Source of the DNA: an uncultured virus (IMG/VR IMGVR_UViG_3300009418_000017)
Lineage: Duplodnaviria; Heunggongvirae; Uroviricota; Caudoviricetes
IMG/VR virus record: IMGVR_UViG_3300009418_000017
Strand: one strand, 5' to 3'
DNA: 64,000 nucleotides
Position numbers and translations under genes: made by a program
Notes under the pieces: model-generated
Databases searched by the model: none
The model's input: only the letters and a program-made list of their open reading frames with translations
What the model was told of the DNA's origin: nothing
Shown: in pieces, positions 11,288-61,474 of the stretch
Layout of the letters: each line of letters opens with the position of its first letter
Position numbering within the stretch: position 1 is the first letter of the stretch

Positions 11288-11384
11288 TCAAAAACCCTAA
11301 AAATCGTTATCCCTAGAAACAAGTGCCTACTCTAAAGCTCTTGATATCCGGGGCTTAGAGAGATATCCGGACTTGAGTTTTCAA

Positions 11385-11489
11385 TTTTTAGGGTCAAAAC
11401 GTGTCTCTCTATATATATATTTATACTTTTTACTAATTATTTATTTATATATTTATAAACAAACGAAAAACCCGGATTGACCCTAAAAA
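11385..11489. repeat. 13-bp inverted repeat flanking an AT-rich core
   Basis: TTTTTAGGGTCAA (11385-11397) and TTGACCCTAAAAA (11477-11489) around a ~50-nt nearly pure A/T tract. Confidence 0.8.
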
Positions 11490-11501
11490 CTCTGCCTAAA
11501 A

Positions 11502-11765
11502 TTAACTCAAGTACAAACTACCTTTGTCAGTGATAACCCATAAACACCGGCTAGCACCTCTACGTTTCTGATACCCGGATTTCTTAATCAAACCTTTTTC
11601 CTTTAAACTCCGGAGTGAAAACTGGATAGCCGGTTTAGTCACTTCGTAAGGAACTTTCTTAATGATCTGGTCCAGGTCCATGTGGCGTCCGGGGTGCTCT
11701 TTTTCGTAACTACCACCGGCTACCAATGTTTTTAGAATCATTCGCTGTTTTTTCGTTAAATTCAT
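11502..11765 (-). CDS. Small winged-helix DNA-binding protein
   Basis: LTKKQRMILKTL...AIQFSLRSLKEKGLIKK wHTH pattern. Confidence 0.75.
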   Translation of the reverse strand: MNLTKKQRMILKTLVAGGSYEKEHPGRHMDLDQIIKKVPYEVTKPAIQFSLRSLKEKGLIKKSGYQKRRGASRCLWVITDKGSLYLS

Positions 11766-11850
11766 AAAACGCTCTCAAATCGTTTCTAAGCGGTTAAAAT
11801 GTCTTACCCTTTACAATGTGATATCTCAGCATTGAAATACTTATATGAGC

Positions 11851-12732
11851 TCAGTCAGCTTCGAGATCGTGCATCGACAGGGGGTCATTCAGCCCTTGTT
11901 TGTCAAATTCTCGAAGCTTTAGCTGTTTTGGCAGCTCTCGACCGTAGTCTGGATTTGTGTAAACACCATAAAGCAGTTGTGTGTGAATCAACTGATTGCA
12001 GTTTTTCAAAAGCTGCTTGTCGGTGTACTTGTCAGCCAGAGAATCTATCTTCTTGCCTAAATTCACACCCGTTTTGTCTTTGGTTGTGAACTTCCAATAG
12101 AACTCTTCAAAGTCCTGCCTAAGCATTTTCTTGATAGGCCCCGGCTTTGACTGCCACTCTTCATAGACCGCAACCCAGTCGTAAATGTTGCAATCAAAAC
12201 GCTGAGACAAAAATTCAATGCCGGCTTCATAGGCAAAAGAACGACTCGGAGGTGCATAAACGAATCCCGATTTTTTGGCAAACGGGTTAAATCGCATCAT
12301 TGCCGATGTAATCTCGATGTATTTACGCCCGGTCATGCGGCACGCTAAGTTCACCATGCGGTATGAGACGCCGGCTCCTCGAAAAATCGGGCTTGTCACT
12401 ATGCGTGACGCACGTAAGAAGTTTTCATTGAGGAATTTAGCTCTCACTTGATTTGACGTTTTGGTCTCGGTACCCGTTGGCTTCAGTCTCGGAAACATTA
12501 CATGACGCTCTTTCAAGAGCATCTGAGGGGTCGAGAAAACGATCACTCCGATCAATTCATCGCGCAACATACAACGATACATTGAGTGACGCGGCGGCAT
12601 CGACTCGGCTTTGTAATGCAAGTGGTGCAACTTGTCCCAGTCTTCCAATGTAGCCGGCTCGACAACCATTTCATCTAAAAGTGAAAGTGCCGGGGAATCC
12701 GGCACGTTATTTTCAATGACTTCTGGATTCAT
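11851..12732 (-). CDS. GNAT-fold acyltransferase (ABC-ATPase-associated)
   Basis: LHHLHY; RASRIVTSPIFRGAGVS acyl-CoA-binding motif A. Confidence 0.75.
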   Translation of the reverse strand: MNPEVIENNVPDSPALSLLDEMVVEPATLEDWDKLHHLHYKAESMPPRHSMYRCMLRDELIGVIVFSTPQMLLKERHVMFPRLKPTGTETKTSNQVRAKFLNENFLRASRIVTSPIFRGAGVSYRMVNLACRMTGRKYIEITSAMMRFNPFAKKSGFVYAPPSRSFAYEAGIEFLSQRFDCNIYDWVAVYEEWQSKPGPIKKMLRQDFEEFYWKFTTKDKTGVNLGKKIDSLADKYTDKQLLKNCNQLIHTQLLYGVYTNPDYGRELPKQLKLREFDKQGLNDPLSMHDLEAD

Positions 12733-13403
12733 CAGTAGACCTCCAGCTCGGCCGGGTCGGTTACCAACATTTTCTTCTCATGGGCGTACTTCTTAATAAT
12801 CGTCTTATTAGCGCCCAGGTCACGCTGCAGGTCGCGATGAGTGGTTGCGGCCACTACTGCAATTTTGTGCTTCAATGAGACATTCCAGATGTGCCTGGCA
12901 AGCACTTTTGCAGTCTCTCTGTCCAAAATTGCACCAAATTCGTCGCAAATAATGACATCGACGTTCTTCTCAAGCAGCTTTGCAATTCGCAAACGGTATT
13001 TCTGACCGTCCGACAGCTGATTAGGCTTTCGGATGAATAGGTGTGCATCGTTCAAACCCGCCATGTTCAAAAGTTCGATAGCGTGATTGGTCGTCTCACC
13101 TAACTGGTCGACAAGCGGCTTATCTTCAATATCGACTTCGTCCAGATCACCAACTTTGAGACCGGCGTCGATGTAGTCTTGCTTCATCTGACGCAAAAGC
13201 TGAGTTTTTCCAGAGCCGGATTGCCCGGTTACATAGATACGCTCGCCTTTTTCAGTCTCAAAGTTAAAGTCTTCGTAGACAGTAAACGTGCTGTCCGCCA
13301 TATCCATGCCGAACGCTTCACAGGCTTCAATAACCCGATCAGTCCGTTCGACCGAGATCGGGAATTTAATGTTAATGCTATGCTGAATGGGAAAATTAGA
13401 CAT
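12732..13403 (-). CDS. Soluble ABC-family ATPase (probable start MSNFP at 13403)
   Basis: GQSGSGKT, LSDGQKYR, VIICDE, ATTH; no membrane partner. Confidence 0.88.
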   Translation of the reverse strand: MSNFPIQHSINIKFPISVERTDRVIEACEAFGMDMADSTFTVYEDFNFETEKGERIYVTGQSGSGKTQLLRQMKQDYIDAGLKVGDLDEVDIEDKPLVDQLGETTNHAIELLNMAGLNDAHLFIRKPNQLSDGQKYRLRIAKLLEKNVDVIICDEFGAILDRETAKVLARHIWNVSLKHKIAVVAATTHRDLQRDLGANKTIIKKYAHEKKMLVTDPAELEVY

Positions 13404-18548: not shown

Positions 18549-18805
18549 TTAGCCTGTTCTATAAGGGTTTTGGCGATTGTCTAACAAGTGCATTCATTAA
18601 CTTTTCTTTTTTCTGACTTCGGCAATGGGTCAAGTAACGCTTCTCTGCAGCCCTTGTCAGTTCGTTCTGAGAGTCGGGTGGTCTGGTTCAAATTTATTGG
18701 TTAAGCGCCTTAAACTGGTGCAACCAGTTCTTTTCAAAACTTTACACTTTTGTGACTGCGGCCAATGCCACGAATTGACAGCCGGCTTTGAGCTTTTTGC
18801 TATAC

Positions 18806-18962
18806 GGGTATAAGAGTCGATAACCTGGTGAGGCGGAAATTTGCCTAATTCCGTCGACCGGGTGATTTGGCTTGCTGTTTTGATTTGGCTGCTCGGGGAA
18901 TTTTAGGCGTTTGGGTATAAGGGTGAGTTTTCTGGTAGGCGGAAATTTGGGTATAAGGGTGA
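18806..18962 (+). repeat. GGGTATAAG direct repeats
   Basis: TTTGGGTATAAGGGTGA at 18910 and 18946; GGGTATAAG at 18806; related copies at 24740 and 24838. Confidence 0.75.
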
Positions 18963-19065
18963 ATTTTTGATTGGCAGAAAATTTTGATTCCATCGGGGTC
19001 ACGGCAGCTGAAAATCTCTAGGACTTTCAGTACCCGATTAAACTCTAATCATTCAATCGTTTTAA

Positions 19066-19197
19066 TCAATTCAGCATCATAATGCTATTACAAACAACAA
19101 TCCCCGAAACGATCAAGCCGACAACGGATAATAAAGCGGCTTGTTTTAGTTGTTTATTGCGCTCTCTGCGCTTGATTCTCTTACTATAACGGCTCAT
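19066..19197 (-). CDS. Small membrane protein, 43 aa (not in ORF track)
   Basis: MSRYSKRIKRRERNKQLKQAALLSVVGLIVSGIVVCNSIMMLN; ATGA overlap with upstream ORF. Confidence 0.6.
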   Translation of the reverse strand: MSRYSKRIKRRERNKQLKQAALLSVVGLIVSGIVVCNSIMMLN

Positions 19198-19301
19198 AAA
19201 AACGCTCCCGATGACATATAAGCTAGAGTAAAAGCAAACGGAACACCGACAACAACGAATAAAACGAATTGAGCGGCTTTCTTAGCGGTTTCTTTAATCA
19301 T
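19194..19301 (-). CDS. Small membrane protein, 35 aa (not in ORF track)
   Basis: MIKETAKKAAQFVLFVVVGVPFAFTLAYMSSGAFL; GGAG RBS. Confidence 0.6.
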   Translation of the reverse strand: MIKETAKKAAQFVLFVVVGVPFAFTLAYMSSGAFL

Positions 19302-19320
19302 TGCGAACACTCCGACCGAT

Positions 19321-19350
19321 GAAAAGAAAGAGCGGCACAGAATGCCGCTC
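19321..19350 (-). terminator. Intrinsic terminator after 19359..20036
   Basis: GAGCGGCA-N5-TGCCGCTC followed by TTTCTTTTC on the minus strand. Confidence 0.65.
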
Positions 19351-19358
19351 TGTTGCTC

Positions 19359-20036
19359 TTACTTGATATTGAATGCGGCTTTAAGCGTATTAAGCTTTTT
19401 AGTGTCCGCTGTCTCAGTCTCTAAAATACCGCCCCGACCGATCCAGTTGCCGAGCCCGATAAAAGCAAGTGACTTTAAAAACTCACGGCTTTGTGTCGCT
19501 GTCTTGTTGTCAATATGCTTTTGCAGCTTATCGACCGTGATCGCTTTCTTGTCGAAATTCTCTAAACAAAAACGGATCGCTTTTTCAAAGTTCGACAATT
19601 GCGGGTTGTATGTTTGCCCGTTCGCTTGTCGGGTTGTGTTCGCTTGATGTTTCGCTTTTTTCAGTGCGTTTTCTACGGTTTCACCGTGAAGAATGAAACA
19701 TAAAGCGCTCATTTTTCCGTAGTTGTTGCGCTTTGCTTGCTCTGGATTTTTAGCGTGTTGTAATACGTCCGCTACTTTACCGGCAAAAGTGTAGTAGTTG
19801 TGTTGAGTAGCGGCTCGCTGTATAGCGTCAAAGTCGGCAGCGCTTTTGTCGGTTTCACTGATTTTTTGCGCTAGAGCTTCACGCTGCTTTGCTTGCTCTG
19901 TTGCAAACTCTGCAAAGCTCGGCTTTGTCTCTTCTGCTTTTTTCGCTGTCTGTTTGCGAGTAGCGGTTTTTTTCGCTGCTGCTTTTTTAGCGGTTTCTTT
20001 TGCTTGAGTTGCTTTAGTGTTTTTACGTTCTGACAT
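19359..20036 (-). CDS. Basic protein with Lys/Ala-rich N-terminal tail (putative immediate-early DNA-binding protein)
   Basis: KKAAAKKTATRKQTAKK; own promoter with operator at 20110-20129. Confidence 0.75.
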   Translation of the reverse strand: MSERKNTKATQAKETAKKAAAKKTATRKQTAKKAEETKPSFAEFATEQAKQREALAQKISETDKSAADFDAIQRAATQHNYYTFAGKVADVLQHAKNPEQAKRNNYGKMSALCFILHGETVENALKKAKHQANTTRQANGQTYNPQLSNFEKAIRFCLENFDKKAITVDKLQKHIDNKTATQSREFLKSLAFIGLGNWIGRGGILETETADTKKLNTLKAAFNIK

Positions 20037-20304
20037 AATAATTACTCTCTAAGTTTGATTGATTTTAAGCTGTATCGGCTCGGCTCTTTGTGCCGTGTCG
20101 ATGATTCTTATATTACAACGCTGAGATATTCGATCAAGTGCTTTTTATAGTTTTTTTTAATAAATTTGATTGTTTGATTACTTTTTAATCATTAGTATGT
20201 TTTTTAGTCATTCAGACAATAAATATAAAGTTTTTGATTTTTTTCTATTGTATTTCAGCTAAAGCCGTGATAGTAACGCACGCACGTTAAATAAAAGTGC
20301 GAAT

Positions 20305-20640
20305 CCTCGATGAGAACACTCCTTATCCTCAACCACAGCCGTCACTTCTCTATACAGAATTCCAAGGACAAGCCCTCTCCCCTATGCTAATACAGCCTTT
20401 CCCTAACCCTGGCACAGCTCTCCCTGGCCATTCCTGTTGTCACAGCGCCAAGGTAACCAAGGCTGTTTTCTACAAATCCAAGGAAGCTCAGGTTTGCCCA
20501 CGCTAACGCAGCCTTTCCCAAGTTTTACCAGGTCAGGCACTATATAGACCAAGGCAACCTTGGAGCCGGTGTGTGCTTACCAGTGGTCGGTCTATATCCC
20601 TACGCTAACGCAGCCATTCTTAAAATTTGAGAGGATTGCC
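20305..20640. repeat. Repeat block: CCAAGG-N3-CCTTGG palindromes and CCTAYGCTAACGCAGCC direct repeats
   Basis: CCAAGGCAACCTTGG 20549, variants 20448, 20478; direct repeats 20381, 20497, 20599. Confidence 0.8.
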
Positions 20641-20642
20641 TG

Positions 20643-20845
20643 AAAAGGCGTGGCCGGCCAATGATAACGAAGATAACCAAAAGGACCGGCCGGCCACGAT
20701 TGCCCGAAGGCAATTAGGGTTGGAGCGCTACTGAGTAAACTGAAGTAACAAAGAGAGAATGAAACCTCAGTAACGCCCCAAAAGTGGCGAGAAGGTGTAG
20801 ACTGGACAGTAGTGCAATGTGTGGGAAACTGTCTACACCTTCTCT
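20643..20845 (-). ncRNA. Putative structured RNA: tandem GC-rich stems with 25-30-nt loops
   Basis: IR pairs CGTGGCCGGCC/GGCCGGCCACG, GCGCTACTGAG/CTCAGTAACGC, AGAAGGTGTAGAC/GTCTACACCTTCT. Confidence 0.45.
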
Positions 20846-20861
20846 GAAAGAGTGACCACCA

Positions 20862-21110
20862 TCAGGCGGTCAAACGGGAATCTTGGGTAATTTTCAGCAA
20901 ACCCTCATCCCTTTCAGCAGCAAGCATGAAATCAATAGCTTCAACCAGGGCCATGCTGAAAGTAAAGTAATGCTGCTCAGTTACTTTACGCTCCTGGTTA
21001 AGCGACGTTCTTAGCCTGAATTTATCCCCGACCTGTTTGATATGAGCAACCGCCTTATCACTGATATGCAGTTGCTCGCTCTCATCGGGGGTCTGGTAGA
21101 CCCGCTTCAT
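20862..21110 (-). CDS. Hypothetical early protein
   Basis: 82 aa, coupled to upstream ORF. Confidence 0.65.
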   Translation of the reverse strand: MKRVYQTPDESEQLHISDKAVAHIKQVGDKFRLRTSLNQERKVTEQHYFTFSMALVEAIDFMLAAERDEGLLKITQDSRLTA

Positions 21111-21111
21111 A

Positions 21112-21429
21112 TTAAGCGACTCCGCTCACCACAGCCTGATAGCCTGTGAGCTTAGCGTTCTTTAAGCGCTCTTTTTGTGACACGAATGTACGGCTCTTAG
21201 TCAGCCCAAACAAACGTCTCTCACGCTCTGACAAGACACTGAACGGCTTAAGTCCTTCTTCTTGAAGAAACGCATAGCGTTGCTTATCCAACGTGAATGT
21301 CGCGCCATGCGAAAAGCCGTCTGACTTTAGTTGTTGTATCTGTTGAGCCGGTGTCATTGAAAGAAGAGCTTCCATGCTGACTGACAATTCCTTTTTGCTT
21401 TCACCGTTGCCAAAGATTGCTTGTTTCAT
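21112..21429 (-). CDS. Hypothetical early protein
   Basis: RBS, shared leader and operator (21505) upstream. Confidence 0.7.
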   Translation of the reverse strand: MKQAIFGNGESKKELSVSMEALLSMTPAQQIQQLKSDGFSHGATFTLDKQRYAFLQEEGLKPFSVLSERERRLFGLTKSRTFVSQKERLKNAKLTGYQAVVSGVA

Positions 21430-21552
21430 TGTAAAATTCCTTCTGTTGCTTGCTTGTTTGCTGAATGTTGTTGAGCGATTTGCTGTCTCGCTTCAACGGT
21501 TTCTATATTACAGTGCTGAGATAGGGGAGCAAGCGAAGTTAAGAACTTAAAT

Positions 21553-21665
21553 CCCTACGCTTTCTAGCTCTACTCCAAGGACGCCTTGGTTTATACAGAA
21601 CCAGTGGACGACAGGCATTCCTACGCTAACGCAGCCAGTCCTAAAACCTGCCTTGGCAACCTTGA
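21553..21665. repeat. Second CCAAGG/CCTACGCT repeat block
   Basis: CCAAGGACGCCTTGG 21575-21589; CCTACGCTAACGCAGCC 21620-21636. Confidence 0.8.
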
Positions 21666-21734
21666 ACCGGGTGAGAAACAAAAAAGGGCGACCGAAGCCG
21701 CCCAAACTTGCAGTGACAAGTTAAAAGACTCTGA

Positions 21735-21983
21735 TTAACGCTCGACCTCTGCGTAAACGTCCGAATCAACGTCCTGGCCAATTTCTTTCACAATATCGGT
21801 AGGAATAGGCATCAGAAACTGAATTTTTCGTGAAATTCCGTCTTCAAACAAAACGTTTAAATGCTCTCCACCAACATATTTAATCTCCACCGGCTCCTGA
21901 GTAAACTGCTCTAACATTCGTCCGTCCACCAGATACGGTGTGGTGGTTTTCTTCATCACGTTTTTAAGGTGTTGTAGTTTCAT
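21735..21983 (-). CDS. Hypothetical protein
   Basis: GAGG RBS; terminator hairpin at ~21680-21703 downstream. Confidence 0.65.
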   Translation of the reverse strand: MKLQHLKNVMKKTTTPYLVDGRMLEQFTQEPVEIKYVGGEHLNVLFEDGISRKIQFLMPIPTDIVKEIGQDVDSDVYAEVER

Positions 21984-21990
21984 TCTTACC

Positions 21991-22323
21991 TCACAGTGTT
22001 ATTTCTAAAAGTTCAAATTCGAAGCTGTTGGGTGAAATGTGGTATTCAAAACCGAAGCTATCATCCAGTGCGTTTATCTCTAATGGCTTGAACACCTCCA
22101 AAGCGTTACGAGAAAACATTGCCTTGATGTAACCCTTAAGCGTCAGCCCTGCGTCACCCGCTTCTTCACGCCAGTCTTTCTCCAGGTTTGGAGTGTGCTT
22201 CATAAGCCTTACCATAAGCTCGGGCAACGTATCTCTGTCATCGAGATCGGCAGAAAAGGTGTGCTTGTTCTCCGCATTTTCAATGTCTATCAAAACCAGC
22301 GTCTGTTGTGATTTAAGGTTCAT
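21991..22323 (-). CDS. Hypothetical protein
   Basis: Shared leader and operator (22358) upstream. Confidence 0.7.
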   Translation of the reverse strand: MNLKSQQTLVLIDIENAENKHTFSADLDDRDTLPELMVRLMKHTPNLEKDWREEAGDAGLTLKGYIKAMFSRNALEVFKPLEINALDDSFGFEYHISPNSFEFELLEITL

Positions 22324-22509
22324 TACTCGTTCTCTCTTGCTTGCTGAATGTGAGTGTATATTACAACACTGAAATAGGCACTCAACAGCTTATCATAAAC
22401 TATTTACCTCACAGCCGGCTTGGAATAGGAATAATTGTTTAGTCATTCGCTTGAACGCCTTTGTGTCAGTGTCATAATACACACTCATTCATAAAGAGAG
22501 AGAAAAACA

Positions 22510-22761
22510 ATGTCTGAAAAAGAGCCGAATTTCCTACGTGAAATCATGCAAGTGTTTATCCCGTCTACTCACAAATTTTATGAATTGAACGAGTTTGAGG
22601 ACGGGAGCTTTAAAATTACTGAGCAAACGATTGATGAAAAAATTGTAACAATTGAAGAAGCCGACCTTGTTGACTTCTACGGCGGCAAAACAATCAACTC
22701 TTACGAGAGTAAAGAAGAAGCTGTTGAGCAATTTAAGGAGCTGACATTCTCACAAATCTAA
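22510..22761 (+). CDS. Acidic hypothetical protein, stand-alone moron-like unit
   Basis: Promoter TTGAAC(22451)-N16-CATAAT with TGn extension; terminator GCGGCC-TTCG-GGCCGT-TTCTTTTTT. Confidence 0.7.
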   Translation: MSEKEPNFLREIMQVFIPSTHKFYELNEFEDGSFKITEQTIDEKIVTIEEADLVDFYGGKTINSYESKEEAVEQFKELTFSQI

Positions 22762-22857
22762 GCAAGCGGCCTTCGGGCCGTTTCTTTTTTGTCAGCCGGC
22801 ACCAAGGAAGCCTTGGTATGAGTGGATTAAACAAAAAAGCGGCCGAAGCCGCCTTTC

Positions 22858-23079
22858 TCAGTCCGTTAATACATAGCAGTGCCAATAATCTCTCAAACTC
22901 ACCTCTGCAATGCTCTGATAACTTCTCATCATGGAAAAGTAATCATCCAGGTTATAAATAACGGCTTCAGGATGCTCAACCTCAACCGGCTCTTGGGTTA
23001 AGAAACTGGTTCCATCAAGCTCTTCTGCCTGTTCAAGCGTGTATTCGCTCTTAGGGAGTAATACAATTGTTGTTGCCAT
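22858..23079 (-). CDS. Hypothetical protein
   Basis: Last gene of a coupled operon; terminator 22833-22851. Confidence 0.6.
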   Translation of the reverse strand: MATTIVLLPKSEYTLEQAEELDGTSFLTQEPVEVEHPEAVIYNLDDYFSMMRSYQSIAEVSLRDYWHCYVLTD

Positions 23080-23081
23080 AA

Positions 23082-23333
23082 CTAATCCTTACCGATATTG
23101 ACGTAAGTGACCCAAACCGTATCCAGGTCAATCGCCTCATCGTTACAGTCGTCCATAAACTGCGACAGAGTCATCACCTGAATATCGCAACACAGCGTAT
23201 TACCTTCTTTGTTCACCGTCTCAGCAACCGCCTGAATGCTCTCAAACGGTCTGTCCTGGATTAGTTCGGCCACAGCCCGACCATCATTCACCCGAGCGGT
23301 TGGAATCAGTACTATATGCTTCTCAGACATCAC
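23082..23333 (-). CDS. Hypothetical protein, probable paralog of 22858..23079
   Basis: Both have N-terminal IVL(L/I)P and C-terminal W..YV. Confidence 0.6.
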   Translation of the reverse strand: MMSEKHIVLIPTARVNDGRAVAELIQDRPFESIQAVAETVNKEGNTLCCDIQVMTLSQFMDDCNDEAIDLDTVWVTYVNIGKD

Positions 23334-23592
23334 GCTTCTCCTCTCTGGCCTTCACCCAACCGTAATGGTCGGCTATCGCCCTTAAAATGTTCAAAATCTC
23401 TTCTTCGCCTTTGAAAAATCCAAAGATCGAATTGCCATGCTTAGATTGAATGTACCCCTCTAAAGCATTCACCCGATAAAAGCTGCCCTCCGGGTATTCC
23501 TCAGACAAAAACCGCCAAAAATCTGTCTCTACCATCGGAATGTTAGACGGATTGCCAGCCTTCATTTCTTCAAGAATTTTCTCTCTGTCCAT
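23323..23592 (-). CDS. Hypothetical protein
   Basis: Tightly packed operon ORF. Confidence 0.6.
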   Translation of the reverse strand: MDREKILEEMKAGNPSNIPMVETDFWRFLSEEYPEGSFYRVNALEGYIQSKHGNSIFGFFKGEEEILNILRAIADHYGWVKAREEKRDV

Positions 23593-23595
23593 AGC

Positions 23596-23838
23596 CTACA
23601 CCGCTGATAGTTCGTAAATAACATGACCCTCACGCTCAGCCCAATCGACTAAGTGACGAGTCACCTCTGTCCAGTTCTTAGGAGCCGGTTTATCGCTTGG
23701 CCAACCGTCTCCTGCCCAAATCTCTTCCAGCTCTTCACCGTTATTCCAGTCACCGGCGATGAGAACGTTCGAGCTCTCATCCCAGTCACCAAAACAACTG
23801 ATCCGGTGGCCACGATAGGTAATGACTGTTTTACTCAT
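23596..23838 (-). CDS. Hypothetical Trp-rich protein
   Basis: ATGA-coupled, GGAGG RBS. Confidence 0.6.
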   Translation of the reverse strand: MSKTVITYRGHRISCFGDWDESSNVLIAGDWNNGEELEEIWAGDGWPSDKPAPKNWTEVTRHLVDWAEREGHVIYELSAV

Positions 23839-24101
23839 GACGCCTCCGGATCGAAGTTAATGAACAGGTCGGCCACACTCTCGATAGCCACCCACATTTC
23901 ATCAACGGTAAAGTCCTGGTAAGACTCAGCCGGTACCAAGTCACCGAAGTCGTTTGAACCATCGGGCATTTCATAAAGGGTCTTCAATGCCTGGTCAGCG
24001 GTTACCTCGTGCTCGGCAGGATTGTCACTGTCAGACACATTGTTGAAGAATAAAAGGAGTGAGCGCTTGTTGTAGGCTTCACGTATTTCATTGGCTGTCA
24101 T
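23835..24101 (-). CDS. Hypothetical protein (start revised to MTANE)
   Basis: GGAG RBS, shared leader and operator (24137) lie inside the longer called ORF. Confidence 0.65.
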   Translation of the reverse strand: MTANEIREAYNKRSLLLFFNNVSDSDNPAEHEVTADQALKTLYEMPDGSNDFGDLVPAESYQDFTVDEMWVAIESVADLFINFDPEAS

Positions 24102-24269
24102 AATAGACTCCACTTGCTGTTGCTGAATGTGCTTATATATTACATTGCTGAGATAGGCACGCAATAGCGACCGTTTATTCATATTCCTGCATAACTATCC
24201 ACTATTTAAAACAAACCCTCGGGGATTTTTCTCGAAAACTGCATACCTACCCACACAAAGTGAATAAAA

Positions 24270-24590
24270 CCCAAGGATTCCACGCATAAATACCCTATAC
24301 AAACCCAAACCAACCAAGGACGCCTTGGATTAAACCCGACCTGCAGGTAACAGCCGGCCAAGGACTCTACATTCCTATGCTTTCATAGCCTTTCCCAAAT
24401 TCTGACAGCCAAGGCTCTCTACAAACCTATGCTAACGCAACCAGTCCTGAATTCTGCTATAACTCCCTCACTCAATGTCGTTCCAAGAGCTTCACAGGCA
24501 CGAGAACACGTCTAAAAGGGAAAACCTAAGCAACCATACCACCCAAGGGCTTACAATCGCTTACAGAGCGTGTCAGGCTTCCTTGGTTCA
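24270..24590. repeat. Third CCAAGG/CCTATGCT repeat block
   Basis: CCAAGGACGCCTTGG 24314-24328; CCTATGCT.. 24374, 24426; several CCAAGG half-sites. Confidence 0.75.
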
Positions 24591-31122: not shown

Positions 31123-31533
31123 TTAATTACCTTCAATCAAAAAGTCTTCGAGTTTATTTTGACCACTTTCGATGCTCTGCTTGATAACATCTGGAATACG
31201 ACCCTGACCAGTCCAAGTCTGCCGGTCTCCATTAGAGTCTTTGTATTCGTATTTAGGCGGCAATTTCTGGCTCTGCTTTCTAACGCTTTTAGCTTCAACC
31301 AAGTCATCAACGGTAAGCCCTGCTGATTTCAATTGTTGATTGAATTCTTCTATCTTTTTAAGCTTTTCACGTTGGGCTTCGAGCTTCTGCTCATTCTCCA
31401 CATGAATATCTGAGAAACATTCATTCACTTTGCTTTGCAATTGATCAAGGGCTTGTTCGTCCAATTGTCTCAAGTATTTCTTAAAACGATGCTTGTTGGA
31501 AATGATGCTTTCGAATTCTTCAAATTCCGACAT
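31123..31533 (-). CDS. hns: H-NS family nucleoid-associated protein
   Basis: PPKYEYKDSNG...TWTGQGRIP signature; N-terminal coiled coil. Confidence 0.9.
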   Translation of the reverse strand: MSEFEEFESIISNKHRFKKYLRQLDEQALDQLQSKVNECFSDIHVENEQKLEAQREKLKKIEEFNQQLKSAGLTVDDLVEAKSVRKQSQKLPPKYEYKDSNGDRQTWTGQGRIPDVIKQSIESGQNKLEDFLIEGN

Positions 31534-43727: not shown

Positions 43728-44116
43728 TTCATACTTACCTCGCTGAATGTTAATGATTAAAAATAATCGTTGAAAAGAGCTTATACTTTGACGCTTGCCT
43801 GAGTATATGTCAACACTGAAATACTAATAAGCTCAAAAGTTAATTCCTCAAATGGCGAATATCAAAGCCAAAACGACAACGACAACAACAATCTTCAACT
43901 TCTCTTCCGCATCCATAAATCCGCCTAGTTTTTAACCAATAAAAGTATAAGAGTTAGACCCCTCGTTTGACCACATCGTAAAATGGAACATTTTACCACC
44001 CGTCTATTCCGAGAAGTCTTGATATATAAGGGTTGTAGGCAAACTGACGGCTGCTAAAATTTTGCAAACACCGCCTACGCTTGCCCACATTCTGCCCACA
44101 TTTCGCACACAAAAAA

Positions 44117-47181: not shown

Positions 47182-47242
47182 TGCTCTTACCTTGCTTGCT
47201 ATTGCTGAACGACTTAATACTATCTCAGCAATGAAATACTAA

Positions 47243-49525: not shown

Positions 49526-50385
49526 ACAGAGATTTCTCCTTTAATAGCTGAGTGAGGTTTATAACCAACAAGCTCCACCATATCCGGCGTCAGATTGTCG
49601 ATGGTTGCTTCAGAATCTAACTTCACTGAAGGCAAGCTCTTAGGCTTGCGACCTAATTGCTTCTTAACCTGGTCTACGTGATTCAGGTATATGTGAGCGT
49701 CACCAATCGTATGAATGAACTCGCTAGCAACGTGACCTGTCATGTTCGCCACCAATTGCAGCAGAAGCGCATAGCTTGCGATATTGAACGGAACCCCCAA
49801 AAACAGATCTGCGCTGCGTTGGTACAGCTGCAACGATAAGTGACGGGCACCATCAATTTCATAGCTCTTAAACTGAAACAGCGTGTGGCATGGCGGTAAC
49901 GCCTGATTGCCTTTCTCTGCATTCTCAGAAGGAGACATTGAGGTGTCCGGTAGTAAGGCCGGGTTCCAACCGCTTACGATGATGCGGCGGCTGTCAGGCT
50001 CTTCTTTCAGCTGACGGATCACTTCACGCAATTGGTCGAAGCGCAAATCCATTGTATTCATGCCGTGATCGATCTTGTGCGGCCAACTGCGCCACATTTT
50101 CCCGTAGATAGGGCCTAGCTCCCCATCTTCAGTCGCCCAGTCATCCCAAATTTTTGCACCAAGCTCGTTCAGTCGCTTAGCGTTGGTACTTCCTTCTAAA
50201 AACCAACAAAGCTCCGCCACGATAGCGTCAAAGTTCACTTTCTTGGTGGTCACCAAAGGAAAGCCTTCTTTCAAGTCGTACCGAGACTGAGTGCCAAACA
50301 AGCTGATGGTGCCGGTGCCTGTTCGGTCGCCGGTCTCAACGCCTTCTGTTAGCACCTTGTCCAATAAATCATGGTACTGCTTCAT
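49522..50385 (-). CDS. thyA: Thymidylate synthase (start revised to MKQYH)
   Basis: [36 protein letters not shown]. Confidence 0.97.
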
Positions 50386-50398
50386 ACTTCCTCCTACG

Positions 50399-50704
50399 TT
50401 ATATGTAGGGAATGACTGTTTCACTTTCAGCTATCTCAGTGAACAACAGGTAGCTACCATGAGCTCTCATGTCGTCCTTGAAATAGCCCTTCTGAGCGAT
50501 GTCTTCAGAAACGCCTTTCAACGTTCTCATAAAACACTGAACTAACGTTGGGTGAGACTTTAAAAGGCCTGTTAAAAAGCCCTGCTTCACCTCTTCGTCG
50601 TAGCCCATTATGTTTATCGACTCCAACAGTCTTCCTACTTGTTTTTCAACGTCTTCAGTTACTTTTTGTTTTTGCTTGTGAAGATTTAAGCCTTCTTTAT
50701 CCAT
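50399..50704 (-). CDS. Hypothetical protein
   Basis: Cassette upstream (50712-50750). Confidence 0.7.
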
Positions 50705-50788
50705 GTTGATTACCTTGCTCGTTGCTGAATGTATTTCAATTCTGACATACTGAACAAGGCAATCAACTAGACCTAAAACAAAAACCCC

Positions 50789-51007
50789 TTACATTTTTAC
50801 CTCGACCTTGAGAGGCTCTATTTCATCTGACCTGATTTTGACAGGTGTTTTATCCTTCCCATAATAAGTATGGTTGGCAAGGACAATGAATACTCCCAAG
50901 TAAAAAAGGAGAAATGCCACTCCAACTATGCGCCACTTCCTTCTATACAAATAAGCAAGCACAGCCTTTCCCAAATTCTGCGAGGTCAGTCGAAAATCGA
51001 AACCCAT
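50789..51007 (-). CDS. Small membrane protein
   Basis: One TM segment. Confidence 0.5.
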   Translation of the reverse strand: MGFDFRLTSQNLGKAVLAYLYRRKWRIVGVAFLLFYLGVFIVLANHTYYGKDKTPVKIRSDEIEPLKVEVKM

Positions 51008-51234
51008 AAGCCTTTATTGTCCCACATCTTTCGCGAACGATGCTCAAGCCTGATCTTCTTAAAGTTGTCCCAGGCCACAATAACGCCCATTAAAATGAGA
51101 ACCGTCGATAACAGCATACCGGCTGCCATTTCCAGCCCCTTATCACTACTTGAGGACAGATAAAAGGCTAATAGCCCTGATGTAGCGGTCATAACGCCAC
51201 AAATTAAAATTACAAACAGTCGAAACATAACCAC
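50986..51234 (-). CDS. Small two-TM membrane protein
   Basis: Two hydrophobic segments, GAGG RBS. Confidence 0.55.
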   Translation of the reverse strand: MVMFRLFVILICGVMTATSGLLAFYLSSSSDKGLEMAAGMLLSTVLILMGVIVAWDNFKKIRLEHRSRKMWDNKGLWVSIFD

Positions 51235-54879: not shown

Positions 54880-54974
54880 ACTACCTCTAGTGTTATTTCT
54901 TATATCGAGTTACTAAATGTTGGGGTTTCGTAGTATCTCAGCGTTGAAATACACAATCAACCCCAAAAAACGAA

Positions 54975-60466: not shown

Positions 60467-61474
60467 CTAGATATTTTCCTTAAGATGCTTGATGACATCG
60501 CCGGTTAGGTCGTTGTCGTCAATATGCTTAATCAACGTTGCGCGAGGGTAAGTTTTCCCGTCAATAAACTTGATTCGATTACCGGCTCTCTCCAGAAAAC
60601 CGTTCTCCTTCATGTAATCGACAAGCGCCCCGGTTGTGTCGATACGACCGATTGACTTCTGACCGGCTCCGCTGCGCTCATACGCAATGTTCCACTTAAC
60701 TTTTTCACCGACCGACTGCGTCACTTTGTTCTTAATGATTTTCGCCGTGATTTCATGCTCATGCACGCGACCCTCTTCCGACTTCACCTTCTTGCCGAGA
60801 GAGATACGCACTGAAGCGTAAAACTTAAGCGCTTTACCGCCAGGTGTCGTCTCAGGATTGCCGAACATAACGCCTGGCTTTTCACGGATCTGGTTGAGGT
60901 AAATCATCACCACATCCATGTCATCGACGAACAGGTTTACCGCTTTCAACGTCGAACTGGTTACTCGAGCCAGTGCCGTTGTGTCGTTCATGTTGTATTC
61001 GCTGATGCCCTTTTCTGCAACAGATTTTGGTACTGCAGCTGCCACCGAATCCTGAACAATAACGATTGGCTTGTCAGCAAACTCTTTTGAGTTTCGAATT
61101 GCTTCAGCAACTTCTAACGCCTTTGTATTGCCTTCTTCCCAAGTAACCGGCTTGATATACATAAAGTGTGGTCGTTTTGTATTCAGACCTAAGTCTTCAG
61201 CGAAGTCTTTCTTGAAAGACCGCTCGTAATCCACAAAGATTCCGACACCACCGGCTTTCTGAGCGGCAATCATGGCCATTGTCGCCATTGCTGTCTTACC
61301 TGATGACTCAGGGCCGTAGATTTCATAAATGCGGCCGGTGGCAAATCCACCATCCGGGTTGCCGCTCAACACAATGTCCAACGGCAAAAGCGATGAACTC
61401 ATAAAGTGATTTTCTTCTTCAAGCCACTCTTCGTCACCTAAAAGACCGGCTAACTCTTTATCTAAACTTGCCAT
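60467..61474 (-). CDS. recA: RecA/UvsX-like recombinase
   Basis: GRIYEIYGPESSGKT, DSVAA, NQIREKPGVMFGNPETTPGGKALKFYASVRI. Confidence 0.95.
   Translation of the reverse strand: MASLDKELAGLLGDEEWLEEENHFMSSSLLPLDIVLSGNPDGGFATGRIYEIYGPESSGKTAMATMAMIAAQKAGGVGIFVDYERSFKKDFAEDLGLNTKRPHFMYIKPVTWEEGNTKALEVAEAIRNSKEFADKPIVIVQDSVAAAVPKSVAEKGISEYNMNDTTALARVTSSTLKAVNLFVDDMDVVMIYLNQIREKPGVMFGNPETTPGGKALKFYASVRISLGKKVKSEEGRVHEHEITAKIIKNKVTQSVGEKVKWNIAYERSGAGQKSIGRIDTTGALVDYMKENGFLERAGNRIKFIDGKTYPRATLIKHIDDNDLTGDVIKHLKENI

What the first reader, a model, noticed from the sequence alone, without database searches (positions are those of the whole stretch)
19023..20304. 1.28-kb zone almost devoid of CCA/CCT/AGG/TGG while CCG/CGG are abundant
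Seen by reading every line: from 19023 to 20304 each run of CC ends in G and each GG run is preceded by C, with two exceptions. One is CCA at 19443 (the only Trp codon of the 225-aa gene, so forced); the other is TGG at 19743. From base composition I would roughly expect several dozen. The depletion covers coding and non-coding DNA on both strands and ends sharply, with 20305 onward very dense in CCT/CCA/AGG. Known: first-injected DNA of phages such as T7 and T5 is depleted of restriction sites, and Ssp phosphorothioation marks CCA. Inference: this is the leading end of virion DNA, purged of a short motif (CCW/WGG) that is either recognised by a host defence or modified by the phage itself in a way that would hinder the first transcription.
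Basis: partly seen in the sequence, partly recalled or inferred. Interest (0 to 1): 0.85.

Follow-up and report, generated by a model that had tools for sequence, protein, structure and literature searches.

The report
Phage early gene cassette without CC/GG
One small early gene unit of a marine phage is written almost entirely without the letters CCA, CCT, AGG and TGG, and related phages of other bacteria carry a unit at the same place with no CC or GG at all, which points to a strong and so far undescribed pressure on that DNA.

Summary
Window 19023-20304 holds 2 CCW/WGG, where shuffles give 32-62 and 1282-nt windows elsewhere have a median of 64. The three longest CCW/WGG-free gaps of the whole 101.7-kb phage genome lie here, side by side.

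The zone is one self-contained early transcription unit. It has a sigma70-type promoter, a GG-less ribosome site, a 225-aa helical protein with a winged-helix-like end, a hairpin terminator and two tiny membrane ORFs.

The main new result is that the feature is conserved across the family. At the syntenic place, 4 Nickievirus and 4 Rhizobium phages examined have 0.85-1.3-kb cassettes with 0-7 CC/GG, where 104-146 per kb is normal. Most of their proteins have no Gly, Pro or Trp. Two SSU5-like phage-plasmids show a partial version. CCT/AGG is depleted in all 10 zones tabulated.

The nickie and hairong zones differ at 42% of aligned positions yet stay CC/GG-free, so selection on the DNA itself maintains the purge.

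The factor that reads the motif is unknown. I favour a "stealth" cassette that is immune in cis to a CC/GG-reading activity, more likely the phage family's own than a host defence. I found no description of this in print.

The parts
19023..20304 (.). CCW/WGG-free zone, equal to one whole early transcription unit
   Evidence: 2 motifs against 32-62 in shuffles. It holds the three longest motif-free gaps of the genome.
20139..20304 (-). AT-rich stretch upstream of the promoter (26% G+C in bin 20100-20299)
   Evidence: A relative's 95,322-nt contig has about 410 extra letters and an 87-nt repeat at 20108-20194.
20089..20138 (-). Sigma70-type early promoter (-35 TTGATC, extended -10 TGTAATATA). 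It is one of four paralogous copies.
   Evidence: Repeat family D5/D4. The pattern has 8 matches against 0.05 expected, with the + oriented copies at 20109, 21504, 22357, 24136 and 43804. In alignment A2 the zone copy reads GAATAT where three other copies read (C/G)CCTAT.
20040..20052 (-). Ribosome-binding site of GAGAG type, without GG
   Evidence: The sequence upstream of the ATG is TTAGAGAGTAATTATTATG. The same GG-less type occurs in 9 of 11 cassettes compared.
19359..20036 (-). 225-aa ORF with a disordered Lys/Ala-rich tail (1-42), helices, and a C-terminal winged-helix-like domain (about 145-224)
   Evidence: ORF. No Pfam or PHROG family. Homologs P0001-P0005. AlphaFold model with pLDDT 69 overall and about 90 at the C-terminus. 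Only weak fold matches.
19329..19351 (-). Hairpin terminator-like site after the 225-aa ORF
   Evidence: 10-pair stem followed by a T run.
19194..19301 (-). 35-aa ORF with a hydrophobic core. It is preceded by CGGAG and overlaps the next ORF by ATGA.
   Evidence: Read from the sequence. It is below the length limit used for the ORF listing.
19066..19197 (-). 43-aa ORF with a basic N-terminus and one hydrophobic helix
20305..20860 (.). Flanking non-coding stretch, the densest in CCW/WGG. It holds CCAAGG copies, CGCTAACGCAGCC repeats and a GGCCGGCC pair.
   Evidence: 18 of the genome's 23 CCAAGG/CCTTGG copies lie in 20362-24581.
18803..18981 (.). Flanking iteron-like direct repeats (GGGTATAAGGGTGA type, 3 copies) in the 0.95-kb non-coding seam. 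They lie outside the zone.
   Evidence: Repeat family D3.

Best explanation
The zone is a complete, autonomously expressed early cassette. Purifying selection acting on the DNA duplex keeps it free of CCW/WGG.

It is the marine member of a cassette found at the same place in the SSU5 / Nickievirus / RHEph10 group of roughly 100-120-kb siphophages. That place is the end of the array of small early genes, a few kb from the DEAD-box helicase. In Pseudomonas and Rhizobium phages the purge extends to every CC and GG.

I read it as a 'stealth' cassette. When it has to work, at the very start of infection, a factor in the cell reads this very short motif on duplex DNA and cuts, nicks, marks or coats it. 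This one unit must stay intact and transcribable, so every copy of the motif has been removed from promoter, ribosome site, codons, terminator and spacers.

The same core motif (CCT/AGG, usually all CC/GG) is purged in phages of four unrelated host groups. I therefore favour a reader that belongs to the phage family itself over a host defence. The simplest candidate is the DNA-binding product of the cassette, which would bind motif-bearing DNA everywhere except its own gene. Another is a phage-borne activity aimed at host DNA.

Shown: the purge, its duplex-level nature, its coincidence with one transcription unit, its conservation, and the selection that maintains it.

Inferred: that a reader exists, what it is, and what the protein does.
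For: (1) The purge acts on the duplex and goes beyond codon usage. Both strands and non-coding parts are free of the motif. Permuting the gene's own synonymous codons gives a mean of 20.1 motifs (minimum 9 of 10000) against 2 observed.

(2) The zone equals one transcription unit, with promoter, GG-less ribosome site, ORF, terminator and two small ORFs.

(3) The promoter is a paralogue of the phage's other early promoters but has lost their CCT (GAATAT instead of (C/G)CCTAT). The purge therefore happened within the lineage and was not imported.

(4) The feature is conserved.
- CC/GG-free gaps are 1137, 1125, 1108 and 1083 nt in nickie, hairong, ZY21 and Nican01. That is 4 of the 5 distinct Nickievirus phages found by tblastn; phiK7B1 was not fetched. 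Background is 104-125 CC/GG per kb and the next gaps are 166 nt or less.
- The gap is 1279 nt in V1VFA-S and 851 nt in B1VFA. RHph_N1_10 has 2 CC/GG in its best 1000 nt, and RHEph10 has 7 in 1.22 kb.
- SSU5 and pJN2-26 show partial depletion: CCY/RGG is 2 and 4 against a permutation mean of 12 (minimum 5 of 5000).
- CCT/AGG is depleted in all 10 zones tabulated.

(5) Selection is at work. The nickie and hairong zones differ at 492 of 1174 aligned positions, yet each has at most 1 CC/GG. The same number of random substitutions creates a mean of 102 (minimum 69 of 2000).

(6) The cost is visible in the proteins. Gly/Pro/Trp counts are 0/0/0 in 7 of the 11 cassette proteins, 1/0/0 in one more, 9/3/1 here and 10/1/0 in the two SSU5-like proteins.

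(7) The phage lineage relies on motif avoidance in general. Ten 6-bp palindromes expected 6-20 times each are absent genome-wide.

(8) The product looks DNA-binding. It has a Lys/Ala-rich tail and a C-terminal helix-strand-helix-helix-hairpin-helix at pLDDT about 90.

(9) The densest CCW/WGG arrays of the genome lie next to the cassette and upstream of the sister early promoters.

(10) The control, T5 bases 1-30000, has no such zone: best score 11.6, against 19.5-22 here and 67-173 in relatives.
Against: No reader has been identified.
- The phage shows no cytosine methyltransferase, deazaguanine genes or obvious short-site nuclease. Pfam found only a Dam-type enzyme and a 2OG-Fe oxygenase.
- The winged-helix call rests on one model from 6 sequences. 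Foldseek found nothing at E < 0.08. VIA-align gave only Z 5.8-5.9 (CadC, BrxR), below the tool's own guidance.
- The cassette proteins of the different lineages are not demonstrably homologous. BLASTP was not significant. hhalign gave E = 7.7e-4 at 25% probability for marine against Nickievirus, and nothing for the other pairs.
- A protein that binds CC/GG everywhere would also sit on the phage's other genes, and I have no account of how they escape.
- The breadth of the purge differs by host group: CCN in Pseudomonas and Rhizobium phages, CCW here, and CCT/CCC/CCG in enterobacterial ones. A host factor would explain that equally well.
- DNA of this phage's close relatives (P0002, P0003) could not be obtained, so conservation of the CCW-only version is untested beyond one roughly 97%-identical contig.
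Confidence: 0.4

Rival explanations
1. Evasion of a host defence. The cassette encodes an anti-defence protein that must be made before the defence acts, so its own DNA is stripped of the motif the defence needs. That motif could be a CRISPR PAM (CC for type I-F; CCW, as I recall, for some type I-B systems) or the site of a very frequent cutter or nickase.
For: - CC is the type I-F PAM, and phages targeted by that system are CC-poor genome-wide (PMC12174588, abstract read).
- The purge covers both strands, as a PAM would require.
- Its breadth varies with host group.
- The phage avoids many restriction sites genome-wide.
- The cassette has strong host-type promoters and so is expressed at once.
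- Precedent, recalled: the T5 first-step DNA lacks EcoRI sites.
Against: - The most absolute purge (0 CC/GG in 1279 nt at 59% G+C) is in Rhizobium phages. I do not know type I-F systems to be usual in those hosts (recalled, not tested).
- In this window CCG/CGG is kept and even enriched (44 against 31), which a CC PAM would not allow.
- The rest of each genome keeps thousands of motif copies. Global CC/GG odds are only 0.77-0.87, so the genome stays vulnerable unless entry is staged or the product acts very fast.
- No host, spacer or defence was identified.
- The zones are full of other common restriction sites such as GCGC, GATC and GAATTC.
Confidence: 0.25
2. The zone is the first DNA to enter the cell, at the leading end or in a first-step-transfer segment, and is purged because it is exposed alone before protection is established.
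For: - The phage group has fixed ends with long direct terminal repeats (PMC11256456 Table 2, PMC12509600 whole text).
- The zone lies beside a 0.95-kb non-coding seam with repeats, and beside a repeat- and palindrome-rich block. This is reminiscent of T5, where pre-early genes are followed by the injection stop signal.
- The nickie record ends lie in the same inter-module region.
Against: - No termini could be mapped here, because only contigs were available.
- The cassette is 8.8 kb (nickie), 4.5 kb (RHEph10) and 2.5 kb (here) from the helicase. It is inverted relative to its neighbours in the Rhizobium phages, so it does not mark one fixed point.
- In B1VFA and V1VFA-S it lies 42 and 24 kb from the record starts.
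- The terminal repeats there are 3.6-3.9 kb, not 0.85-1.3 kb.
- T5's first-step DNA has no comparable purge.
Confidence: 0.15
3. The zone is a stretch on which the phage's DnaG-type primase cannot start. Primases recognise trinucleotides, and a CCN template would give a pppGG primer. If the zone lies at the genome end, replication would leave a long single-stranded 3' tail that promotes annealing or RecA-driven concatemer formation.
For: - The avoided motif is a trinucleotide with a fixed CC core and a variable third base, as for primase sites with a 'cryptic' base (recalled biochemistry of the T7, T4 and E. coli primases).
- All members encode a DnaG-like primase, RecA and an SSB.
- A conserved phage enzyme would explain the same core motif across hosts.
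Against: - This model needs the zone to be the terminal repeat or the very end, which is not shown. Known repeats in the group are three times longer than the cassette.
- One priming event would not be catastrophic, so near-zero tolerance is unexpected.
- It does not explain why the zone coincides with one transcription unit in either orientation.
Confidence: 0.05
4. A mutational footprint. A CC-specific cytosine deaminase, or a similar process, acts on single-stranded DNA exposed in this very highly transcribed unit and has eroded all CC/GG.
For: - Both strands are affected, as for deaminases that act on transcribed DNA.
- AAA/TTT (2.0x) and TAA/TTA (1.6x) are enriched in the zone.
Against: - Where an ancestral state can be inferred from paralogous promoters, the change is CC to AA, not C to T.
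- AG/CT and GA/TC dinucleotides are not enriched (0.92 and 0.81).
- G+C is kept at 40-51% by GC/CG alternation.
- Proteins stay functional across 42% nucleotide divergence with no new CC/GG, which needs selection in any case.
Confidence: 0.05
5. An RNA-level cause. The mRNA avoids Shine-Dalgarno-like (AGG/GG) and anti-Shine-Dalgarno-like (CCU) strings, or the site of a GG-specific RNase, as with T4 RegB cutting at GGAG (recalled).
For: - CCT/AGG is the one pair depleted in all 10 zones.
- 9 of 11 cassettes use a GAGAG-type ribosome site without GG.
Against: - Sense and antisense strands are purged equally, and so are promoter and upstream spacers that are not transcribed.
- A single internal AGG should not be lethal, yet tolerance is near zero.
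Confidence: 0.05
6. Chance, a compositional island, or recently imported foreign DNA.
For: The zone is somewhat lower in G+C than the genome (0.40 against 0.46).
Against: - All shuffle and codon controls reject chance.
- The promoter is native to the phage.
- The same feature sits at the same place in 10 other genomes and is maintained across 42% divergence.
Confidence: 0.01

Closest known systems
First-step-transfer (pre-early) DNA of phage T5, which lacks EcoRI sites although the rest of the genome has them (recalled; the T5 record annotation was seen)
   Same: - Local, not genome-wide, removal of a nuclease motif from the earliest-expressed DNA.
- Host-type early promoters.
- A DNA-binding protein and small membrane proteins among the products.
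- A repeat-rich non-coding block next to it.
- The phage group has long terminal repeats.
   Different: - There the motif is a 6-bp site of one host enzyme in about 10 kb with 17 genes. Here it is a 2-3-nt motif removed completely from 0.85-1.3 kb with 1-3 genes, so strictly that proteins lose Gly, Pro and Trp.
- T5 itself shows no trinucleotide-free zone.
- A terminal position is not shown here.
PAM depletion in phages targeted by CRISPR-Cas (PMC12174588, abstract read; PMC4246573, search listing only)
   Same: - A 2-3-nt motif (CC for type I-F) is under-represented on both strands to escape a DNA-targeting system.
   Different: - Described depletion is mild and genome-wide. Here the genome is nearly normal (odds 0.85) and one cassette is purged to zero.
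- CCG is kept in this phage.
- The purge occurs in phages of hosts in which that CRISPR type is not known to me.
Genome-wide restriction-site (palindrome) avoidance in phages
   Same: This phage does it strongly: ten 6-bp palindromes are absent. This shows that the lineage relies on avoidance rather than on base modification.
   Different: The zone's motif is not a palindrome or a normal restriction site. Common sites such as GCGC and GATC abound inside the relatives' zones.
Very short-site enzymes of chlorella viruses (nickase Nt.CviPII and methylase M.CviPII, site CCD; recalled)
   Same: They show that virus-encoded enzymes can read a CC-based trinucleotide and are used against host DNA.
   Different: No homologue was seen here. 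Those viruses protect their whole genome by methylation, not by leaving the motif out of one gene.
Genes that avoid the site of their own product (restriction and homing endonuclease genes; ACA-poor mRNAs and MazF; recalled)
   Same: The logic of self-immunity by leaving out the motif.
   Different: Those cases concern a nuclease or RNase with a known site. Here the product has no known activity and the motif is shorter.

Membership tests
SSU5 / Nickievirus / RHEph10 group of siphophages and phage-plasmids (for the phage as a whole) | Shared gene order: helicase, two ParB-like genes, two ABC ATPases, terminase, portal, capsid, tail, lysis, PhoH, DnaB, DnaG, ligase, CobT/CobS, Pol III alpha, SSB, RecA, RNR, ThyA, and an array of small early genes | tested here: met
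   Pfam scans of 103 + 34 ORFs compared with the annotated records of nickie, SSU5, RHEph10 and B1VFA. The helicase is 41-45% identical.
SSU5 / Nickievirus / RHEph10 group | Plasmid-type replication and partition genes (phage-plasmid habit) | tested here: met
   RepA (PF10134) and ParA at G001 11376-13337. Whether the phage really lives as a plasmid was not tested.
CC/GG-free early cassette (the group defined in this report) | A 0.85-1.3-kb stretch between the small early genes and the helicase, nearly or wholly lacking CC/GG-type motifs on both strands | tested here: met
   Here CCW/WGG only, 2 against about 65 expected. Relatives are shown.
CC/GG-free early cassette | Own sigma70-type promoter, GG-less GAGAG ribosome site, a 184-225-aa helical ORF, a hairpin, and a second small ORF | tested here: met
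CC/GG-free early cassette | Homology of the main protein between lineages | tested here: inconclusive
   hhalign marine against Nickievirus gave E = 7.7e-4, probability 25%, over 105 columns. Other pairs gave E 0.06-0.45. BLASTP was not significant.
T5-type first-step-transfer DNA | Lies at the leading end, inside the terminal repeat | not testable with these tools
   Only contigs were available and no read ends. Terminal repeat coordinates of relatives are not given in the text.
T5-type first-step-transfer DNA | Two-step DNA entry that depends on products of the segment | not testable with these tools
   This needs infection experiments.
T5-type first-step-transfer DNA | Homologues of the T5 pre-early genes (A1, A2, dmp) | tested here: not met
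   No family was assigned to any ORF of the zone by Pfam or PHROGs. T5 itself has no motif-free zone.
CRISPR PAM avoidance | The avoided motif equals the PAM of a CRISPR type present in the host | not testable with these tools
   The host is unknown (marine metagenome). CC = type I-F PAM (PMC12174588 abstract). CCW as a type I-B PAM is recalled only. CCG is retained here, which does not fit CC.
CRISPR PAM avoidance | Spacers in host arrays that match the phage | not tested
   No spacer search was made.
Ssp/Dnd phosphorothioate system (motif CCA; recalled) | The motif is CCA only | tested here: not met
   CCT/AGG is 0 against about 30 expected, as strict as CCA/TGG at 2 against about 35. Relatives purge all CC/GG.
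Winged-helix DNA-binding proteins | Helix-turn-helix followed by a beta-hairpin wing | tested here: inconclusive
   The model shows H149-158, E164-166, H167-174, H180-191, E196-198, E203-205 and H211-220 at pLDDT about 90. The best structural rows are weak: MarR prob 0.75 at E 0.74, and CadC Z 5.9 and BrxR Z 5.8.
Winged-helix DNA-binding proteins | Match to a curated sequence family | tested here: not met
   0 Pfam and 0 PHROG families. The Atlas best score was 0.85.

The most novel reading that the evidence does not exclude
A whole group of phages (SSU5, Nickievirus and RHEph10 relatives) carries a host-takeover or DNA-shielding factor that reads the bare dinucleotide step CC:GG on any DNA in the cell. 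The one gene unit that must keep working while that factor acts is written in a CC/GG-free 'dialect'. The rule is so strict that its proteins are built without glycine, proline and tryptophan. The window shows the marine variant, in which only CCW is read. This would be a new way for a virus to tell one piece of its own DNA from all other DNA, using neither base modification nor a specific long site.
Probability: 0.25. Interest if true: 0.92.

Novelty: new variant of a known kind. Interest (0 to 1): 0.87.

Why it matters
Local avoidance of a defence motif in the earliest DNA of a phage is known in principle from T5 and T7. A complete, conserved purge of a two- to three-letter motif from one expression cassette is something I could not find described. 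The purge is strong enough to dictate the amino-acid make-up of the encoded proteins.

It marks a gene of unknown function as critically important in a widespread phage group. That group includes phage-plasmids of enterobacteria and biocontrol candidates against Pseudomonas syringae.

It also predicts an unidentified activity that reads CC/GG on DNA at the onset of infection.

The feature is easy to test, because culturable members exist (nickie, Nican01, B1VFA). It is also a simple computable signature, a dinucleotide-free window, which could be used to find similar 'stealth' genes in other viruses.

Tried and rejected
- DNA of close relatives. The search for related loci with the protein or alignment A1 returned only the window's own record in viral contigs, metagenome contigs and genome contigs. 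The helicase query in viral contigs found nothing. blastn and tblastn of the zone or its protein against 'phages' found nothing.
- Termini. All four runs laid were assembled contigs, so no read starts or ends could be seen. Contig depths cannot show a terminal repeat. The table of single-letter differences was cut before the zone, so the differences in the roughly 97%-identical contig could not be read.
- Expression. No RNA holder was listed.
- RNA genes. No tRNA or Rfam family lies in the window.
- Function of the protein. Pfam, PHROGs, ESM Atlas, Foldseek PDB and VIA-align wide gave nothing decisive. An NCBIfam scan failed on a coordinate slip and was not repeated.
- Earlier findings of this scan. 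There were none for this genome or these words.
- Terminal repeat position in relatives. Nican01 begins at the terminase gene by convention. The B1VFA and V1VFA-S records are permuted against each other. The supplement of PMC11256456 gives no coordinates.
- Ideas considered and set aside:
  - General restriction-site avoidance, because GCGC, GATC and GAATTC abound in relatives' zones.
  - Codon- or tRNA-level causes, because non-coding parts are purged too.
  - H-NS-type silencing, because the motif is not AT-rich.
  - Dcm/EcoRII CCWGG, because half-sites are purged while CCWGG is normal genome-wide (217 copies).
- PMC10815195 mentions GG dinucleotides but concerns other phages and global periodicity.
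Full report
**The observation**

The stretch 19023-20304 contains CCA once (19443), TGG once (19743), no CCT and no AGG. It keeps 22 CCG, 22 CGG, 8 CCC and 2 GGG. The last motif before it is AGG at 19020 and the first after it is CCT at 20305.

In the window as a whole, CCW/WGG occurs 3164 times (49.4 per kb). Sliding 1282-nt windows hold a median of 64, a 5th percentile of 47 and a minimum of 2, and the minimum lies exactly here. The three largest motif-free gaps (562, 423 and 300 nt) are adjacent, and the fourth is only 149 nt.

- Compared with the rest of the window, AGG/CCT is 0 against 29.8 expected and CCA/TGG is 2 against 34.7. CCG/CGG is 44 against 31.4. No other trinucleotide falls below 0.42 of expectation, and no 4-mer free of the motif is comparably avoided.
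- Shuffles of the zone give 61.8 (mononucleotide, minimum 39 of 5000) and 32.2 ± 3.5 (dinucleotide-preserving, minimum 21 of 5000).
- In the 225-aa ORF, resampling synonymous codons from the phage's usage gives 31.8 (minimum 17 of 10000). Merely permuting the gene's own synonymous codons gives 20.1 (minimum 9 of 10000). The observed count is 2.

The avoidance therefore lies in codon choice and also in codon order. It is a property of the nucleotide string on both strands. One exception is the only Trp codon. The other is a Pro codon CCA, which is not forced.

**The genome**

The window belongs to a virus record of 101,852 nt (handle G001). Its ends overlap by 168 nt, so the assembly is circular or terminally redundant, about 101.7 kb long. 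The zone is unique in it.

Pfam scans of 103 + 34 ORFs show a siphophage. Its gene content and order match Pseudomonas phage nickie, Rhizobium phages RHEph10 and B1VFA, and the Salmonella phage-plasmid SSU5.
- It has a DEAD-box helicase, two ParB-like genes, ABC ATPases, terminase, portal, capsid and tail.
- It has PhoH, a Dam-type methylase, DnaB, DnaG, ligase, ParA + RepA, CobT/AAA, Pol III alpha, a gp32-like SSB, RecA, an SbcCD-like pair, RNR, ThyA and DHFR.
- It has a long array of small unknown genes and an H-NS homologue.

No cytosine methylase or deazaguanine genes were seen. The genome lacks ten 6-bp palindromes that are each expected 6-20 times, so it relies heavily on site avoidance. 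It comes from marine metagenomes.

**Anatomy of the zone**

Read on the minus strand, the zone holds the following parts:
- An AT-rich stretch at 20139-20304.
- A sigma70-type promoter at 20089-20138, with -35 TTGATC and extended -10 TGTAATATA.
- The ribosome site TTAGAGAGTAATTATT before the ATG.
- The 225-aa ORF at 20036-19359.
- A 10-pair hairpin with a T run at 19351-19329.
- A 35-aa ORF at 19301-19194.
- An overlapping 43-aa ORF at 19197-19066.

The promoter is one of four close paralogues (20109, 21504, 22357, 24136), with a fifth, weaker copy at 43804. The pattern has 8 matches in the window against 0.05 expected. In the alignment the other three close copies carry (C/G)CCTAT in the spacer, where the zone's copy has GAATAT. 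The promoter is therefore native to this phage, and the CCT was lost here.

To the right of the zone lies the densest CCW/WGG stretch of the window (24 and 21 per 200 nt). It holds CCAAGG copies, and 18 of the genome's 23 CCAAGG/CCTTGG copies lie in 20362-24581. It also holds repeats that recur upstream of the sister promoters. To the left lies a 0.95-kb non-coding seam with three iteron-like repeats.

**The protein**

The protein has no Pfam or PHROG family. It has five relatives among billions of proteins: P0001 at 96% identity, P0002 at 73%, P0003 at 58%, P0004 and P0005.

An AlphaFold model built from 6 sequences has a mean pLDDT of 69. It shows a disordered Lys/Ala-rich tail (1-42), helices, and a confident C-terminal helix-strand-helix-helix-hairpin-helix. 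I read the C-terminal part as winged-helix-like.
- Foldseek found nothing at E < 0.08. Its top rows are PCI and MarR domains.
- VIA-align gave only Z 5.8-5.9 to the winged-helix proteins CadC and BrxR, which is below the tool's own guidance.

**The same feature in relatives**

A scan for the longest gap of every dinucleotide and degenerate trinucleotide, scored as gap x density minus ln n, gave the following.

| Genome or stretch | Best score(s) |
|---|---|
| This genome, AGG/CCT and CCW/WGG | 22.3 and 19.5 |
| This genome, elsewhere | 11.6 or less |
| nickie | 98 |

In nickie the hit is a stretch at about 103.86-105.07 kb without any CC or GG, in DNA of 55% G+C.

The gaps in the four Nickievirus phages fetched are 1137, 1125, 1108 and 1083 nt. 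These are 4 of the 5 distinct phages found by tblastn; phiK7B1 was not fetched. Background is 104-125 CC/GG per kb and the next gaps are 166 nt or less. The only exceptions are one CCG each in nickie and hairong.

In the Rhizobium phages:
- V1VFA-S has a gap of 1279 nt, with a background median of 146 per kb.
- B1VFA has a gap of 851 nt.
- RHph_N1_10 has 2 CC/GG in its best 1000 nt.
- RHEph10 has 7 in 1.22 kb.

SSU5 and Klebsiella pJN2-26 show a partial form confined to one 216-aa ORF. CCT/AGG is 1-2 against 15 expected, CCC/GGG 1-2 against 13 and CCG/CGG 4-6 against 18-19, while CCA/TGG is normal. In synonymous permutation, CCY/RGG is 2 and 4 against a mean of 12 (minimum 5 of 5000).

CCT/AGG is thus depleted in all 10 zones tabulated. 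Other members of the helicase hit list were not examined. T5 bases 1-30000, which include its first-step-transfer DNA, served as a control and show nothing (best score 11.6).

Everywhere the zone sits between the small early genes and the helicase, at 2.5 kb here, 4.5 kb in RHEph10 and 8.8 kb in nickie. In the Rhizobium phages it is inverted relative to its neighbours.

Everywhere it is one unit, with sigma70-like promoter(s), a 184-225-aa helical ORF, a hairpin and a second small ORF.
- 9 of 11 cassettes have a GAGAG-type ribosome site without GG. The two SSU5-like ones use AAGGA.
- The main proteins have no Gly, Pro or Trp in 7 of 11. One has 1/0/0, this one has 9/3/1, and the two SSU5-like proteins have 10/1/0.
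- Homology between the lineages' proteins is not established. hhalign gave E = 7.7e-4 at 25% probability for marine against Nickievirus and nothing for other pairs. BLASTP was not significant.

**Selection**

The nickie and hairong zones differ at 492 of 1174 aligned positions (41.9%), and each has at most one CC/GG. Putting 492 random substitutions into nickie's zone creates 102 CC/GG on average (minimum 69 of 2000). For the 156 differences to ZY21 the mean is 40 (minimum 18). The absence is therefore actively maintained.

A roughly 97%-identical relative of the marine phage, from a different study, keeps the zone in one 95,322-nt contig. It has about 410 extra letters and an 87-nt repeat in the AT-rich upstream part.

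**What it means**

The facts call for a strong pressure that acts on duplex DNA, is confined to one early expression unit, and tolerates almost no copy of a 2-3-nt motif. My reading is a 'stealth' cassette: a factor that reads CC/GG (here CCW) on DNA is active when this unit must work.

- **The phage's own factor.** The core motif is the same in phages of Pseudomonas, Rhizobium, enterobacteria and a marine host. The cassette product looks DNA-binding. The motif is densest just beside the cassette and upstream of the sister early promoters. For these reasons I favour this option, at 0.4 for the stealth model with a phage-borne reader as the leading form.
- **A host defence** (0.25). The CC PAM of type I-F is the obvious candidate for Pseudomonas (PMC12174588, abstract). 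It fits poorly with the retained CCG here and with the Rhizobium phages.
It is compatible with either reader but untested. The group has long terminal repeats (PMC11256456 Table 2, passages read; PMC12509600, whole text read). Their positions are not given, and the record coordinates do not place the cassette near an end.
- **Other models.** A primase-start-free end, a deaminase footprint and RNA-level causes each explain some features and fail on others (0.05 each).
- **Chance or foreign DNA** is excluded by the controls.

**Novelty**

Full-text searches for local motif-, PAM- or dinucleotide-free regions in phages turned up only genome-wide PAM depletion and unrelated work. The announcements of the relatives do not mention the feature. 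For PMC8537276 and PMC11256456 I read passages only, and for PMC12509600 the whole text. Supplements of bioRxiv preprints could not be seen.

I file the finding as a new variant of local motif avoidance in early phage DNA. It is unusual in its strictness, in the shortness of the motif, in its conservation and in its effect on protein composition.

Noticed in passing
window 50331-51102 (G001 91365-92136): A 771-nt stretch between thymidylate synthase and the RNR small subunit lacks CCG/CGG: 0 CCG and 1 CGG at its edge, against 13 in mononucleotide shuffles (minimum 4 of 2000). CpG density is half the window's. This is the second strongest trinucleotide gap of the genome.
   Followed up: partly
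whole genome G001 (window plus L002-L004): Ten 6-bp palindromes are absent although each is expected 6-20 times: AATATT, CCATGG, CGATCG, CATATG, ATGCAT, ACATGT, GTATAC, CGTACG, CACGTG and GCATGC. CCTAGG is absent too. This indicates very strong restriction-site avoidance.
   Followed up: partly
window 20362-24581: 18 of the genome's 23 CCAAGG/CCTTGG copies cluster in the intergenic parts of the early region. Four of them form CCAAGG-N3-CCTTGG hairpins (20549, 21575, 22802, 24314). Repeats with the core CGCTAACGCAGCC lie between terminators and the early promoters. These may be operators or RNA elements.
   Followed up: partly
window 11822-11841, 47221-47240, 54934-54953 (minus strand): A variant of the early-promoter motif (GTATTTCANNGCTGAGATA) occurs in the opposite orientation at three other intergenic sites, one of them upstream of the small terminase region. 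The shared GCTGAGATA may be a regulator site rather than part of the promoter.
   Followed up: no
window 18803-18981: Three iteron-like direct repeats (GGGTATAAGGGTGA type) lie in a 0.95-kb non-coding, AT-rich seam between the zone and the helicase block. This could be an origin or a partition site.
   Followed up: no
window 11410-11449: In contigs of three other runs, indels and loose ends with AT/TA-repeat sequence lie just upstream of the small terminase gene. This looks like a hypervariable spot.
   Followed up: no
L019 29106-29786 (RHEph10 gp097) and L015 4690-5013 (nickie): RHEph10 gp097 is annotated on the + strand. The ORF with a ribosome site and terminator lies on the minus strand (L019 29196-29762), so the annotation is probably on the wrong strand. 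Nickie has an unannotated 107-aa Arg/His-rich ORF inside its CC/GG-free zone.
   Followed up: partly
window 31123-31533: The phage encodes a full-length H-NS homologue, with both N- and C-terminal Pfam domains. This hints at a proteobacterial host and at nucleoid-level interference.
   Followed up: no
G001 ends (window about 60650-60818): The virus record is classed as linear, but its last 168 nt repeat its first 168 nt. The assembly is therefore circular or terminally redundant, and its ends are arbitrary.
   Followed up: yes
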